From the IMG/VR virus record IMGVR_UViG_3300018432_000011, positions 1 through 41,678 of that record: a stretch of 41,678 nucleotides of DNA. One strand, 5' to 3'. Numbering within the stretch: the stretch's first letter is position 1; each line of letters starts with the position of its first letter. A model generated the notes under the pieces. It had not been told where the DNA came from. It worked only from the letters and a program-made list of their open reading frames with translations, and ran no database searches. The DNA is from a virus. Below are positions 27,434 through 30,207 of this stretch, piece after piece. A program made the position numbers and the translations under genes.

Positions 27434-27470
27434 TGGTGGACCGTTGGTGATCTCAACCGGTGGATGGTGG
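27434..27470 (+). repeat. Candidate integrase arm-type sites, int-proximal arm (ATGGTGGAC / ATGGTGGTC)
   Basis: TGGTGG at 27434-27439 and 27465-27470, with related GGTGA/GGTGGA between them. Confidence 0.3.
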
Positions 27471-27506
27471 TCCGCTCAGCGAGCCATCGGTGCAGGTCAA
27501 ACCTTG

Positions 27507-27548
27507 TGCGCCCCCTGGGATTCGAACCCAGAACCTGCGGGTTAAGAG
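27507..27548 (-). other. attP core: 3' portion of a tRNA-Lys(CUU)-like sequence (anticodon loop to discriminator)
   Basis: The minus strand reads CTCTTAA-CCCGC-AGGTT-CTGGG-TTCGAAT-CCCAG-GGGGCGC-A. These correspond to the anticodon loop with CTT, the 3' anticodon stem, the variable loop, the T arm and the 3' acceptor strand. There is no matching 5' acceptor, D arm or 5' anticodon stem upstream. Confidence 0.75.
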
Positions 27549-27663
27549 TCAGTTGTCGTGTCGGCATCGACCGGCAACAGGTGGCGATGTACGGCTAAGA
27601 GTGCGGCGACGATCGGTCGAGGGACCAAGCGAACGGCGACAACCGGCAACCCCGATGCCGGTT

Positions 27664-28416: not shown

Positions 28417-28756
28417 CGAGGGCGGCGTCGAGGATCGCCTGCTCGACCTCGTCGAGGCTGGACAGGTCGACGCCGGAGAGGGCGGCGGGCTGGTTGGAAC
28501 CGTGGTGGGCGTCTTTGATGACGATGCCAGAGATCCGCAGCAGGTGGCCCTGCTCCCAGCCAAGGGCGTCCTCGATGGCGTTCCACCGCTCGATCGGCGG
28601 GGTGTTCTCACCGCTCACCCACTTGTTGACGGTTTGGGGCCGGACGCCGAGCACCTTCGCCAGCCGAGCCTGCGACCACCCGGGCCGACGACACGCCGAA
28701 GCGATCGCCTCGTTCACTGCACCGGATGTGTACGCCTCTGCCACGAACCCGCCCAT
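28385..28756 (-). CDS. CI-like repressor, XRE-family HTH
   Basis: 'WSQARLAKVLGVRPQTVNKWVSGENTP' helix-turn-helix. Divergent from the cro-like gene across a 99-bp operator region. Confidence 0.8.
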   Translation of the reverse strand: MGGFVAEAYTSGAVNEAIASACRRPGWSQARLAKVLGVRPQTVNKWVSGENTPPIERWNAIEDALGWEQGHLLRISGIVIKDAHHGSNQPAALSGVDLSSLDEVEQAILDAALDAIRARRGAK

Positions 28757-28819
28757 CCCTTCTGGCGGGAATCGTAGTTACGGGGGAGGGATTTACGGTG
28801 TGACGTGATCCCGCAGGGG

Positions 28820-29152: not shown

Positions 29153-29325
29153 GCGAGGTCGGTGTGTACACCACGGCCGAGGTCGTCGCCTTGCTACGGA
29201 TCAGCGAGCGGACCCTGCGCCAGCGCGTGCGCGATGGCGTGATCCCCACCGTCGAGCTGGGCGGTCGCGCTGTCCGGTTCCCGAAGGCCGTCATCGATCG
29301 GCTCTGCTCGGAAGGCGCCGCGTGA
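29149..29325 (+). CDS. Excisionase-like / MerR-type HTH_17 DNA-binding protein (58 aa; not in ORF track)
   Basis: ATGA overlap. The 'YTTAEVVALLRISERTLRQRVRDGVIPTVELGGRAVRFP' pattern is typical of Xis/AlpA-type HTH proteins. Confidence 0.55.
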   Translation: MSEVGVYTTAEVVALLRISERTLRQRVRDGVIPTVELGGRAVRFPKAVIDRLCSEGAA

Positions 29326-29597
29326 TGCGCCAGCTCGCCGACGTCCTCGTGCCGGACTGGTCGCTCGGCCTCGTCGGCTTCGTTCCCGGCGGCGCCGTTG
29401 AGTGCGACGGCGGCTGTGCGTTTCATCCCTCTCGGCATCGGCACCCGGTCGCGGTAGCGGCGGCCCCTGAGAACTCGCCGGCGGCGTTCGTGGACGCCGG
29501 CGGGGCCCACGGCCGGGACAACGACGCCGAGGACGCGCGCCCTGCTGGGGCTGACAGGGCGCGCGTCGGGGCGTCCTTCCCGAGGGTCCTGCCGTGA
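29325..29597 (+). CDS. Hypothetical protein (90 aa)
   Basis: TGATG overlap. Fairly high GC3. 3' part of ORF 28962..29597. Confidence 0.45.
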   Translation: MRQLADVLVPDWSLGLVGFVPGGAVECDGGCAFHPSRHRHPVAVAAAPENSPAAFVDAGGAHGRDNDAEDARPAGADRARVGASFPRVLP

Positions 29598-29791
29598 CGG
29601 CCCTGAGCAAGAAGCAGCGAGCGGCGCTCGACGCGATTGCCGCACAGCCGCGCGACCCCGCCGCCCTGGCCCTGCTGCTCGAGACGAGCAAGGAAGGCGC
29701 TGCGCAGACCGCCAGCTCGCTCGTTCGTCGCGGCCTCGTCCAGCGTGAGCGCCACGCCGGCCGCGTCTCCTATCGGATGGCGCACCGATGA
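29594..29791 (+). CDS. Small winged-helix-like DNA-binding protein (65 aa)
   Basis: GTGA overlap. 'LSKKQRAALDAIA...ALALLLETSKEGAAQTASSLVRRGLV' resembles MarR-type wHTH. Confidence 0.5.
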   Translation: MTALSKKQRAALDAIAAQPRDPAALALLLETSKEGAAQTASSLVRRGLVQRERHAGRVSYRMAHR

Positions 29792-30207
29792 TGCAGCCCC
29801 GCGCCCTGGCGCCTCTTTTTTTTGGCCAATTTCGGAATGCCATCGCCGTAGTTACAGCACACCTGTTCGGATCGACGGTTCCGAGCAGCCCCCGCGGCGC
29901 ATCGGAAGATCCCTTCTCCGCCCGCTTCCGACAGGTCGATCGGGGAGAGACAACCCCGCCGGCGGATCAGCCCGGGGGCTGCTCGGAACCGACCGAGCCC
30001 GATCTGCCCCAGACGTTCGTCGCCTGCCGGTGCGGCCACCTCAACCCGCTCCACGCCGTTGAGTGCGAGCAGTGTGGCGCCCCCCACCCGAGGCACCTCG
30101 CCCGGCTGGTGCGCTGCACCGAGTGCGGCGACGAGGACGCCGGACCGTGGCTTCTCCGTGACGGGCGGATGCTGTGCGAGCGCTGCGCTGATCGGAGTGC
30201 GGCGTGA
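29788..30207 (+). CDS. Cys-rich zinc-ribbon protein; N-terminal half doubtful
   Basis: The C-terminal 'CRCGH..CEQCG....CTECG....CERC' region has good GC3. The first ~30 codons (T8 tract, A/T-rich third positions) look non-coding, yet the only canonical in-frame starts are ATG 29788/29791. Confidence 0.4.
   Translation: MMQPRALAPLFFGQFRNAIAVVTAHLFGSTVPSSPRGASEDPFSARFRQVDRGETTPPADQPGGCSEPTEPDLPQTFVACRCGHLNPLHAVECEQCGAPHPRHLARLVRCTECGDEDAGPWLLRDGRMLCERCADRSAA
29801..29823 (+). terminator. Short GC hairpin plus T8 tract (weak intrinsic-terminator-like element)
   Basis: gcgc-cctg-gcgc at 29801-29812, then ctc and TTTTTTTT at 29816-29823. It sits in a stretch whose codons have unusually many A/T third positions. 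The stem is only 4-5 bp. Confidence 0.3.
29876..29991. repeat. 116-bp element bounded by perfect 19-bp inverted repeats (CGGTTCCGAGCAGCCCCCG ... CGGGGGCTGCTCGGAACCG)
   Basis: Arms at 29876-29894 and 29973-29991, verified base by base. The 78-nt interior has a sub-hairpin CGGAAG/CTTCCG (29903-29908 / 29925-29930) and the palindrome CCGCCGGCGG (29956-29965). Confidence 0.9.

What the first reader, a model, noticed from the sequence alone, without database searches (positions are those of the whole stretch)
29797..29995. Structured 116-bp element with perfect 19-bp inverted repeats, preceded by a T8 tract, inside a nominal ORF
After the wHTH gene, the sequence changes character. It shows a short GC hairpin, T8 (29816-29823), and about 60 nt with many A/T third positions. 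Then come CGGTTCCGAGCAGCCCCCG (29876-29894) and its exact reverse complement (29973-29991), separated by 78 nt. The interior contains a second hairpin (CGGAAG/CTTCCG, 29903-29930) and the palindrome CCGCCGGCGG. A 19-bp perfect inverted repeat cannot be chance in 41.6 kb. The interior also contains ATCCCTTCT (29909-29917), identical to the 9-mer at the repressor start (28755-28763). However, a given 9-mer is expected about 0.3 times by chance in 2 x 41.6 kb under uniform composition, so this link is weak. The only canonical starts for the downstream zinc-ribbon ORF (ATG 29788/29791) would force translation through all of this. Several roles are possible: a cis-acting RNA (antitermination, processing or small-RNA element), a protein-binding site or secondary operator, a replication or recombination site, or a MITE-like insertion. 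I see no target-site duplication to support the last.
Basis: seen in the sequence. Interest (0 to 1): 0.62.

Follow-up and report, generated by a model that had tools for sequence, protein, structure and literature searches.

The report
Host rsmH-leader RNA copied into phage
The 116-base "inverted-repeat element" is a complete copy of a folded RNA that Acidimicrobiia bacteria keep in front of their ribosome-methylase gene rsmH, inserted into an early gene of an uncultured temperate phage. It is not a transposon, and it may let the phage sense or interfere with a host control circuit.

Summary
The 19-bp perfect inverted repeat (29876-29894 / 29973-29991) is the longest in the genome and beyond chance. 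The T8 tract, inner hairpins and lack of codon periodicity are real.

All 10 loci recovered from relatives of this phage (about 8 lineages) lack the 116-nt unit. It is therefore a lineage-specific, in-frame insertion of 117 nt.

It is not a MITE. A covariance model built only from 28 bacterial sequences hits the window at 29864-30010 (+) with 72 bits, E=5e-18. Those sequences form a single-copy three-stem RNA between mraZ and rsmH. It was found in 116 of 151 sampled genomes of the order containing Rhabdothermincola (Acidimicrobiales). 24 of its 39 base pairs show compensatory changes. It has no Rfam match; it occupies the same position as the mraW motif RF01746 but is built differently.

The repeat arms are the closing helix P1. 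"ATCCCTTCT" belongs to the conserved P2 loop, so its match to the repressor start is chance.

The phage has no rsmH or mraZ. Function in the phage is inferred: an RNA gate or decoy responding to the unknown host factor.

This scan has noted the bacterial motif before on other DNA; the phage copy is new. The hairpin/T8/AT-rich stretch upstream is a separate conserved regulatory leader ending in an SOS-box-like palindrome.

The parts
29594..29791 (+). wHTH (MarR_2-like) gene. Its TGA overlaps the ATG of the next ORF (ATGA). The gene is absent from all relatives examined.
   Evidence: Pfam PF12802, E=3e-7. Sequence. Relatives.
29788..30207 (+). Nominal 139-codon ORF made of a translated leader (69 codons, including the RNA unit) plus a double zinc-ribbon domain.
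   Evidence: Family alignment A3.
29797..29823 (+). Degenerate GC hairpin (GCGCC/GGCGC) plus T8. It is homologous to an 8-9-bp hairpin (UCCG loop in five loci, longer in L016) with a pyrimidine tail in the relatives, whose stems carry compensatory changes.
   Evidence: The terminator scan does not call it.
29824..29875 (+). Lower-GC conserved leader segment. It contains GAATGCCATCG and ends in the SOS-box-like palindrome GCACACCTGTTC (29859-29870).
   Evidence: Alignment of 8 lineages. Box scan. True LexA boxes in front of lexA in L023.
29874..29876 (.). Left copy of the 3-bp direct repeat GAC at the insertion junction (microhomology or target duplication).
   Evidence: Sequence. Deleting 29877-29993 restores ...HLFGST|EPDLPQTF in frame.
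29876..29991 (+). Phage copy of the Acidimicrobiia rsmH-leader three-stem RNA (whole unit).
   Evidence: The bacteria-only covariance model R1 gives 72 bits, E=4.8e-18 on the + strand and 14 bits on the - strand.
29876..29894 (+). P1, 5' strand of the closing helix. Its inner part GCAGCCCCCG matches the family consensus GCAGCCcCcCG.
29902..29931 (+). P2 hairpin. The stem is UCGGAAG/CUUCCGA. The 16-nt loop AUCCCUUCUCCGCCCG (29909-29924) contains CCGCCCG (29918-29924), identical to 16S rRNA 1399-1405.
   Evidence: 26 of 26 bases identical to L052. Family alignment. 16S string present in G347 and G478.
29935..29963 (+). P3 hairpin. The core is CGGGG (29941-29945) / CCCCG (29954-29958) with loop AGAGACAA, as in L021, L064 and L084.
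29973..29991 (+). P1, 3' strand. In about a third of the bacterial homologues examined this strand holds the first in-frame AUG of rsmH. The phage copy has no start codon here.
29991..29993 (.). Right copy of the GAC direct repeat.
29995..30204 (+). Conserved double zinc-ribbon domain (EPDLPQTFVACRCG...). Homology with all relatives begins exactly here.

Best explanation
SHOWN.
- The 116-nt unit is a complete, sense-strand copy of a structured RNA that bacteria of the order containing Rhabdothermincola (Acidimicrobiales, class Acidimicrobiia) keep as a single copy between mraZ and rsmH. The RNA has a long closing helix P1, a hairpin P2 with a near-invariant 16-nt loop, and a hairpin P3.
- In this phage lineage alone the unit was inserted as 117 nt, in frame. 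It lies between a conserved regulatory leader and the zinc-ribbon domain of an early gene.
- No rsmH or mraZ came with it.

INFERRED.
- It was acquired from an Acidimicrobiia host by illegitimate recombination, possibly using the GAC microhomology.
- It is transcribed with the early operon and folds as it does in the host.
- Because its conserved loops are intact, it would bind the same still-unknown host factor that reads the host rsmH leader.
- Through that binding it would either gate ribosomes that enter from the ATGA-coupled start and must melt a 19-bp GC helix before reaching the zinc-ribbon domain and the coupled downstream early genes, or titrate the factor away from the host dcw/rsmH leader, or both.

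My odds: membership in the RNA family 0.95; host-to-phage origin 0.9; RNA-level function retained in the phage about 0.5; the factor being RsmH itself, through rRNA mimicry, about 0.2.
For: Insertion. All 10 loci recovered from relatives of this phage (about 8 lineages) share the synteny repressor / cro / HTH_17 / ORF of about 100 aa / leader / zinc-ribbon gene, and all lack the unit. Model R1 finds nothing in them. Removing 29877-29993 restores ...GST|EPDLP, as in the relatives.

Family membership.
- BLAST of the unit against 401 Actinomycetota genomes hit its interior in chromosomes.
- Those places have the same three-stem architecture, with different P1 sequences.
- 30 distinct bacterial instances were collected. 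26 have a MraZ signature upstream and all 30 an RsmH signature downstream, on the same strand.
- In alignment A5 (28 sequences), 24 of 39 pairs carry compensatory changes. 94.6% of cells are paired, against 30-48% when the partners are slid. 0 of 500 shuffles reach the observed values.
- Half the sequences have a U-G pair at columns 30/130, which implies sense-strand RNA.
- Model R1, built without the phage sequence, scores the window at 72 bits, E=4.8e-18 (+), against 14 bits (-). Sense-strand bacterial scores are about 40-149 bits.
- R1 hits 116 of 151 genomes of the order, at one locus each.

Intactness.
- The P2 core matches L052 at 26 of 26 bases, and the following CAGGTCGATCGGGGAGA at 17 of 17.
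- The two outer P2 pairs changed on both sides, from AU/UA to UA/CG, and remain paired.
- Fold energy is -80.9 kcal/mol, against a bacterial mean of -82.3 +/- 4.7.
- The unit's ends coincide with the base of P1, with no detectable mraZ or rsmH flanks.

Host.
- G347 is Rhabdothermincola sediminis, by an exact MraZ match.
- The best matches to the attP tRNA-Lys fragment in a phylum-wide sample are enriched for that order (compared with the list).
Against: - No expression, structure-probing or binding data exist.
- The function of the bacterial motif itself is unknown.
- Only this one viral record carries the unit. There was no true hit among 2.9 million IMG/VR contigs, in INPHARED or in the JGI metagenome contigs, so selection within phages cannot be measured.
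- The unit lies inside the only canonical reading frame, so translating ribosomes would unfold it.
- The start codon found in P1 in about a third of the bacterial copies is absent here.
- In-frame, stop-free insertion is weak evidence, because 5 of the 6 frames are open.
- The donor species is not in the sampled genomes. The best match is 87% identity over the 61-nt core and about 67% over the whole unit. The compensatory changes could therefore have arisen in the donor rather than in the phage.
Confidence: 0.6

Rival explanations
1. Passive capture. A scrap of host DNA containing the rsmH leader was picked up by illegitimate recombination. It is tolerated because it is in frame and stop-free. 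It has no role in the phage and will decay.
For: - Only one phage carries it.
- rsmH and mraZ were not co-acquired.
- There is no start codon in P1.
- The GAC microhomology at the junctions fits illegitimate recombination.
- The relatives' zinc-ribbon genes work without it.
Against: - The captured piece is exactly the folded unit, with no detectable host flank on either side.
- All three stems and both conserved loops are intact.
- P1 is perfect, and two P2 pairs are doubly compensated.
- Fold energy is typical of working bacterial copies.
Confidence: 0.3
2. A MITE or other small non-autonomous transposon, with 18-19-bp terminal inverted repeats and a 3-bp target duplication.
For: - Perfect terminal repeats.
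- Absence from the relatives.
- GAC/GAC flanks.
Against: - There is no other copy in the window.
- The single IMG/VR hit to the arm lies in a coding sequence and has no partner arm.
- The arm pair occurs once in 185,579 species genomes, inside a transglutaminase-like gene.
- Homologues are single-copy and fixed at mraZ-rsmH, with covarying arms that are not conserved in sequence.
- The interior, not the ends, is the conserved part.
Confidence: 0.03
3. A DNA-level site that uses the inverted repeats: a cruciform, a protein-binding site, or an invertible switch. The 78-bp interior is a multiple of 3, and both orientations keep the frame open.
For: - The arms are a perfect DNA palindrome.
- The inverted form also reads through without a stop.
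Against: - The family tolerates U-G pairs and scores far better on one strand, which indicates RNA.
- A 78-bp interior is very short for recombinase synapsis (own knowledge).
- 5 of the 6 frames are open anyway.
Confidence: 0.04
4. An ordinary protein-coding segment: a 39-residue linker of the zinc-ribbon protein selected at the amino-acid level.
For: - The frame is open from the ATGA-coupled ATG.
- The relatives also keep the leader frame open.
Against: - There is no codon periodicity.
- Short-form relatives start directly at the domain.
- In L015 the leader is non-coding.
- The nucleotide sequence is conserved with non-coding bacterial leaders.
Confidence: 0.03

Closest known systems
Acidimicrobiia rsmH-leader three-stem RNA. 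It is not in Rfam 15. This scan described it earlier on bacterial DNA (notes e1-2292418 and e1-2347216), and I re-derived it here independently as model R1.
   Same: Same P1/P2/P3 architecture, the same conserved loops, and a significant score from a model built without the phage sequence. It lies on the sense strand of its transcription unit.
   Different: It sits in a phage early operon rather than between mraZ and rsmH. It lies inside a translated leader. It has no start codon in P1. Its P1 is perfect over 19 bp, at the top of the bacterial range.
mraW RNA motif, Rfam RF01746 (Weinberg et al. 2010, PMC2864571; 'cis-regulatory?, Actinomycetales')
   Same: The bacterial homologues occupy the same genomic position, the 5' leader of mraW = rsmH. 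They are also long GC-rich helices with a pyrimidine-rich conserved loop (UACUYCC).
   Different: RF01746 is a single long hairpin with the loop GUACUUCCCCAA. It does not hit the window or the Acidimicrobiales loci, even at E<=10. R1 gives only 15 bits on one true RF01746 site.
Phage-borne copies of host cis-regulatory RNAs. Examples are manA and PhotoRC-II in cyanophages and Lacto-int in phages (table in PMC2864571). Glutamine riboswitches in cyanophages are from my own knowledge.
   Same: A host-type structured leader RNA carried in a phage genome.
   Different: As I recall, not checked here, those motifs usually sit as 5' leaders of the genes they control. Here the RNA was taken without rsmH and placed inside the leader of an unrelated zinc-ribbon gene.
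MITEs and mycobacteriophage mobile elements (MPME1/2; own knowledge)
   Same: A small insertion bounded by inverted repeats in an actinophage-type genome.
   Different: It is single-copy, and its homologues are at a fixed locus. The conserved part is the interior fold rather than the termini.
Translational autoregulation of rRNA methyltransferases through rRNA-like sites in their own mRNA (ErmC, KsgA; own knowledge, not checked here)
   Same: The P2 loop UAC..UCCGCCCG resembles 16S rRNA UACACACCGCCCG around C1402, the base that RsmH methylates.
   Different: This is untested. As I recall, RsmH acts on assembled 30S subunits. Some family members vary within the 7-mer (CCACCCG, CCGCCCA).

Membership tests
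Acidimicrobiia rsmH-leader three-stem RNA (model R1) | Significant covariance-model score from a model that excludes the candidate | tested here: met
   72 bits, E=4.8e-18 at 29864-30010 (+). Sense-strand bacterial scores range from about 40 to 149 bits.
Acidimicrobiia rsmH-leader three-stem RNA (model R1) | Long closing helix P1 enclosing two hairpins | tested here: met
   19 contiguous Watson-Crick pairs. The bacterial range is 7-19.
Acidimicrobiia rsmH-leader three-stem RNA (model R1) | P2 stem GGAAG/CUUCC with loop CCCU(A/U)CUCCGCCCG | tested here: met
   GGAAGATCCCTTCTCCGCCCGCTTCC is identical to L052 over 26 nt.
Acidimicrobiia rsmH-leader three-stem RNA (model R1) | P3 hairpin (C/U)GGGG-purine-rich loop-CCC(C)G | tested here: met
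   CGGGG-AGAGACAA-CCCCG, the same loop as in L021, L064 and L084.
Acidimicrobiia rsmH-leader three-stem RNA (model R1) | Location between mraZ and rsmH, on the sense strand | tested here: not met
   The phage has no PF01795 or PF02381 match. The unit lies between a wHTH gene and a zinc-ribbon domain. The orientation is sense to the early genes.
mraW RNA motif RF01746 | Score at or above the Rfam gathering threshold (50 bits) | tested here: not met
   No RF01746 hit on the window at E<=10.
mraW RNA motif RF01746 | Single long hairpin capped by a GUACUUCCCC-type loop | tested here: not met
   True hits L032-L038 show that shape. The unit is a three-way junction.
MITE | Terminal inverted repeats | tested here: met
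   18-19-bp perfect repeats.
MITE | Target-site duplication | tested here: inconclusive
   Only a 3-bp GAC, which I estimate (uncomputed) would arise by chance roughly 3-10% of the time.
MITE | Multiple dispersed copies sharing the termini | tested here: not met
   Homologues are single-copy.
Intrinsic terminator (for the hairpin + T8 at 29797-29823) | Stable GC stem-loop directly followed by a U-run | tested here: inconclusive
   The scan does not call it. The stem is 5 bp with a 2-nt loop. The relatives have 8-9-bp stems, but their tails vary from CCCCUUUU to UUCAAAAG.
Invertible DNA switch | Both orientations present in a population | not testable with these tools

The most novel reading that the evidence does not exclude
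Phages repeatedly copy the lineage-specific RNA that sits in front of rsmH at the head of the host cell-division (dcw) operon. Here, an Acidimicrobiia phage would express the copy early as a decoy or sensor for the factor that reads it. That factor may be RsmH itself, recognising a loop that mimics its 16S rRNA target (UAC..CCGCCCG). The phage would thereby couple its development to, or reprogramme, host ribosome methylation and division. Unchecked notes from this scan report phage copies of the unrelated mraZ-rsmH RNAs of Saccharibacteria and of another lineage. If those hold, this would be convergent capture.
Probability: 0.2. Interest if true: 0.85.

Novelty: new variant of a known kind. 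Interest (0 to 1): 0.66.

Why it matters
- **A puzzle resolved.** An apparent transposon inside an ORF is identified as a host regulatory RNA carried by a phage without the gene it normally controls.
- **A testable handle.** The function of mraW/rsmH-leader RNAs has been unknown since 2010. A phage that keeps the fold and both conserved loops intact while discarding rsmH suggests the RNA may act in trans or bind a diffusible factor. The 116-nt phage unit is a compact, natural construct for binding and reporter tests.
- **A host clue.** The motif was found in most sampled genomes of one order (its spread beyond that order was not measured), and the attP tRNA-Lys match agrees. Together they point to Acidimicrobiia as the host of this uncultured phage, a class for which I know of no cultured phages (own knowledge).
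- **An annotation warning.** The zinc-ribbon gene family is called with 40-70 extra N-terminal codons that are really a regulatory leader.

Tried and rejected
- **Rfam.** Scans of the region and of the bacterial loci found nothing relevant.
- **Phage and plasmid collections.** Nothing in INPHARED or PLSDB.
- **IMG/VR.** Searches with the arm, the arm pair and two core patterns gave only chance hits, which R1 rejected.
- **Species genome set.** The arm-pair search gave one chance hit, inside a transglutaminase-like gene of a Gaiellaceae MAG.
- **JGI metagenome contigs.** No hit to a phage-specific core string.
- **Closer relatives of the phage.** None found through the zinc-ribbon protein, the wHTH protein or the 175-aa neighbour.
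- **Operator link.** Rejected. ATCCCTTCT, and also CGTAGTTAC, are chance 9-mers.
- **Internal start codon for the zinc-ribbon domain.** None is canonical.
- **Frameshift site at T8 with the big hairpin as stimulator.** The hairpin is about 52 nt away, which I judge too far for a frameshift stimulator (own knowledge; not pursued).
- **"P1 always hides the rsmH start codon".** True for only about a third of the bacterial copies examined, so I do not claim it as the general mechanism.
- **Match to the lexA leader of G134.** The 19-nt identity (L023) is probably chance, at E of about 0.07 after 401 genomes. R1 does not hit L023.

Full report
**1. Observation**

The window is a complete IMG/VR virus record: 41,678 bp, direct terminal repeats, 69.6% G+C, no tRNA.

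The 19-bp perfect inverted repeat (29876-29894 / 29973-29991) is the longest in the genome. In 40 Markov-simulated genomes the longest arm ranged from 11 to 15 bp.

Codon periodicity is absent across 29788-29994 (GC1/2/3 = 0.68/0.59/0.68). It returns exactly at 29995 (0.76/0.56/0.86). The only canonical in-frame starts are ATG 29788/29791, which overlap the wHTH stop as ATGA.

**2. Relatives of the phage**

The zinc-ribbon protein has few relatives. I found one by word search (P0001) and more by an exhaustive HMM search and a profile search. Ten contexts were fetched.

They share the synteny repressor(-) / cro-like / HTH_17 / ORF of about 100 aa / [leader] / zinc-ribbon gene. Homology with the window begins exactly at EPDLPQTF, position 29995.

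Most relatives have a leader of 40-50 codons that is open from an ATGA-coupled ATG. The leader consists of:
- an 8-9-bp GC hairpin (UCCG loop in five loci, longer in L016), in three different, mutually compensated stem sequences;
- a pyrimidine-rich tail;
- about 60 nt of lower G+C;
- a conserved 3' palindrome.

Three loci show that the leader is a nucleic-acid-level regulatory module rather than a protein domain. In L015 it is closed by a stop codon, and the gene has its own ATG at the domain. In L012 and L013 the leader is missing altogether.

None of the relatives has the 116-nt unit. The window's hairpin + T8 + AT-rich stretch (29797-29875) is the homologue of this leader. The unit is an extra 117 nt at its 3' junction. 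Deleting 29877-29993 restores ...HLFGST|EPDLPQTF in frame, and a 3-bp GAC flanks the insertion.

**3. Not a mobile element**

- There is no second copy in the window.
- The arm occurs once in IMG/VR, inside a coding sequence and without a partner arm.
- The arm pair occurs once in the 185,579-species genome set, inside a transglutaminase-like gene.
- Nothing was found in the phage or plasmid collections.

**4. What it is**

BLAST of the unit against 401 Actinomycetota genomes hit its interior, not its arms, in several chromosomes. Those places have the same layout: a long outer helix of different sequence enclosing GGAAG[..CCCCUACUCCGCCCG]CUUCC and a second hairpin around GGGGAGA. All lie between mraZ and rsmH (= mraW), on the strand of those genes.

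A pattern search in one order gave a single near-exact core per genome in many genomes. I collected 30 distinct instances. 26 have a MraZ signature upstream and all 30 an RsmH signature downstream.

A MAFFT alignment of 28 of them (A5) gives a three-helix consensus:
- 24 of 39 pairs show compensatory changes.
- 94.6% of cells are paired, against 30-48% in slid controls.
- 0 of 500 shuffles reach the observed values.
- One P1 pair is U-G in half the sequences, so the structure belongs to the sense-strand RNA.

The covariance model R1, built from these bacterial sequences only, scores the window at 29864-30010 (+) with 72 bits, E=4.8e-18. The opposite strand scores 14 bits. R1 finds the motif in 116 of 151 genomes of the order, at one locus per genome.

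One member genome is Rhabdothermincola sediminis (Acidimicrobiales, Acidimicrobiia), identified by an exact MraZ match.

"CGGAAG/CTTCCG" is P2. "ATCCCTTCT" lies in the conserved P2 loop. The GGGG...CCCC hairpin is P3.

**5. Relation to the known mraW motif**

Rfam RF01746 occupies the same position in other Actinomycetota. It is a single long hairpin with a GUACUUCCCCAA loop. It matches neither the window nor the Acidimicrobiales loci. R1 gives only 15 bits on one RF01746 site.

Weinberg et al. list mraW as a candidate cis-regulator of unknown function (PMC2864571). It is seen as a 5' UTR in C. glutamicum RNA-seq (PMC3890552).

After I had reached this point, the scan's own notes showed that the Acidimicrobiia three-stem RNA had been described before on bacterial windows (e1-2292418, e1-2347216). 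They also contain claims that other lineage-specific mraZ-rsmH RNAs occur in phages (e1-4151962, e1-2123772, e1-2123154, e1-2184355). I did not check those claims, and I use them only as leads.

**6. State of the phage copy**

- The core is identical to the nearest bacterial copies: 26 of 26 and 17 of 17 bases with L052, and 87% over 61 nt with G531, G478 and G412.
- Identity over the whole unit is only about 67%. The donor is therefore unsampled, or the transfer is not recent.
- The two outer P2 pairs differ from every bacterial copy on both sides and still pair.
- P1 is perfect over 19 bp. That is the top of the bacterial range, shared with L021.
- Fold energy is typical: -80.9 kcal/mol, against -82.3 +/- 4.7.
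- The unit's ends coincide with the base of P1, with no detectable mraZ or rsmH sequence attached.
- The phage has no RsmH or MraZ homologue.
- No other viral contig carries the motif, and none of the JGI metagenome contigs has the phage-specific core.

**7. Mechanism**

Shown: the unit's identity, its insertion, its strand and its intactness.

Inferred: the unit is transcribed within the early operon and folds as it does in the host. In about a third of the bacterial copies examined the first in-frame AUG of rsmH lies in the 3' strand of P1. In the others it lies 15-60 nt downstream. The motif is therefore a 5'-leader control element, but start-codon sequestration is not universal.

In the phage there is no start codon after the unit. 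Ribosomes must come from the ATGA-coupled ATG and melt P1. The most likely working model, at about 0.5, is an RNA gate and/or decoy that responds to the same unknown host factor as the host leader.

The P2 loop (UAC..UCCGCCCG) resembles 16S rRNA UACACACCGCCCG around C1402, the RsmH target. That string is present in G347 and G478. RsmH could therefore be the factor. I put this at about 0.2, because 7-mer matches are not rare in GC-rich RNA, some family members vary within it, and, as I recall, RsmH acts on 30S subunits.

The main rival, at about 0.3, is neutral capture of host DNA.

**8. Host**

The motif was found in most sampled genomes of one order (its spread beyond that order was not measured). 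In a phylum-wide sample the best matches to the attP tRNA-Lys fragment include five genomes of that order, out of about 13 present among 401 (compared). Together these point to an Acidimicrobiia host.

**9. Limits**

- Calibration of R1 was shortened, so its E-values are rough. The bit scores are not affected.

Noticed in passing
window 29859-29870 (GCACACCTGTTC); also L008 3112, L009 2303, L010 1779, L016 348, L005 233, L007 469, L015 1284: The conserved 3' end of the leader is an SOS-box-like palindrome, (TC)GAAC-N4-GTTC(GA). Each of the 8 lineages has exactly one core mismatch. The box lies a few bases to about 30 nt upstream of the zinc-ribbon domain, and in the window it lies directly upstream of the inserted RNA unit. 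Three perfect or near-perfect boxes of this type precede lexA in L023. One-mismatch boxes are at chance frequency in the window (15 found, about 16 expected), so only the conserved position counts. It may be a LexA-controlled promoter or roadblock inside the early operon.
   Followed up: partly
window 29532-29567; L005 about 80-112; L010 about 1608-1643; L008 about 2944-2972: A 13-bp perfect hairpin (GACGCGCGCCCTG...CAGGGCGCGCGTC) lies near the 3' end of ORF 29322-29597. Relatives keep a hairpin at the same place with the loop CUGGGGAAG but quite different stems. This is a second covarying structure inside a coding region of the early operon.
   Followed up: no
L005 165-200, L007, L008, L009, L010, L016 (homologous to window 29797-29823): The leader hairpin has three mutually compensated stems: GGGCGCUC/GAGCGCCC, GGGGCUCC/GGAGCCCC and GGCCGACC/GGUCGGCC. 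All but L016 have a UCCG loop, and all lie 25-45 nt after an ATGA-coupled start. In the window and in L015 the stem has decayed and the T-run has grown to T8. This may be an attenuator coupled to translation.
   Followed up: partly
L008 3065-3075, L009 2255-2285, L016 320-360: The relatives' leaders carry further small palindromes: CACGCGTG (twice in L009), CACATCGATGTG, GACATGGATGTC and GATGNCATC. The window has AATGCCATC at 29835-29843. These are possible binding sites for phage HTH proteins.
   Followed up: no
window 29594-29791: The wHTH (MarR_2-like) gene is also specific to this phage. In the relatives the ORF of about 100 aa is followed directly by the leader and zinc-ribbon gene. This junction has therefore accepted two insertions.
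   Followed up: partly
L023 (G134:C37) 1500-1553: The lexA leader of an unnamed actinobacterium shares CCCCCGCGGCGCATCGGAA (19 nt) and further patches with the phage unit, directly after an SOS box that resembles the window's left flank. R1 does not match it. It is probably chance (E about 0.07 after correcting for 401 genomes), but it is an odd double coincidence.
   Followed up: partly
bacterial loci L043-L084: The P1 3' strand carries a conserved GAUGAGC. Its AUG is in frame with RsmH in only about a third of the genomes examined (for example L052, L044, L061). In others, such as L043 and L051, it is out of frame and the real start lies downstream. The AUG-like string is therefore conserved for another reason.
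   Followed up: partly
window 27470-27580: The attP tRNA-Lys fragment matches Acidimicrobiales genomes best (96% over 50 nt in G226 and G369). This is consistent with the host inferred from the RNA motif.
   Followed up: partly
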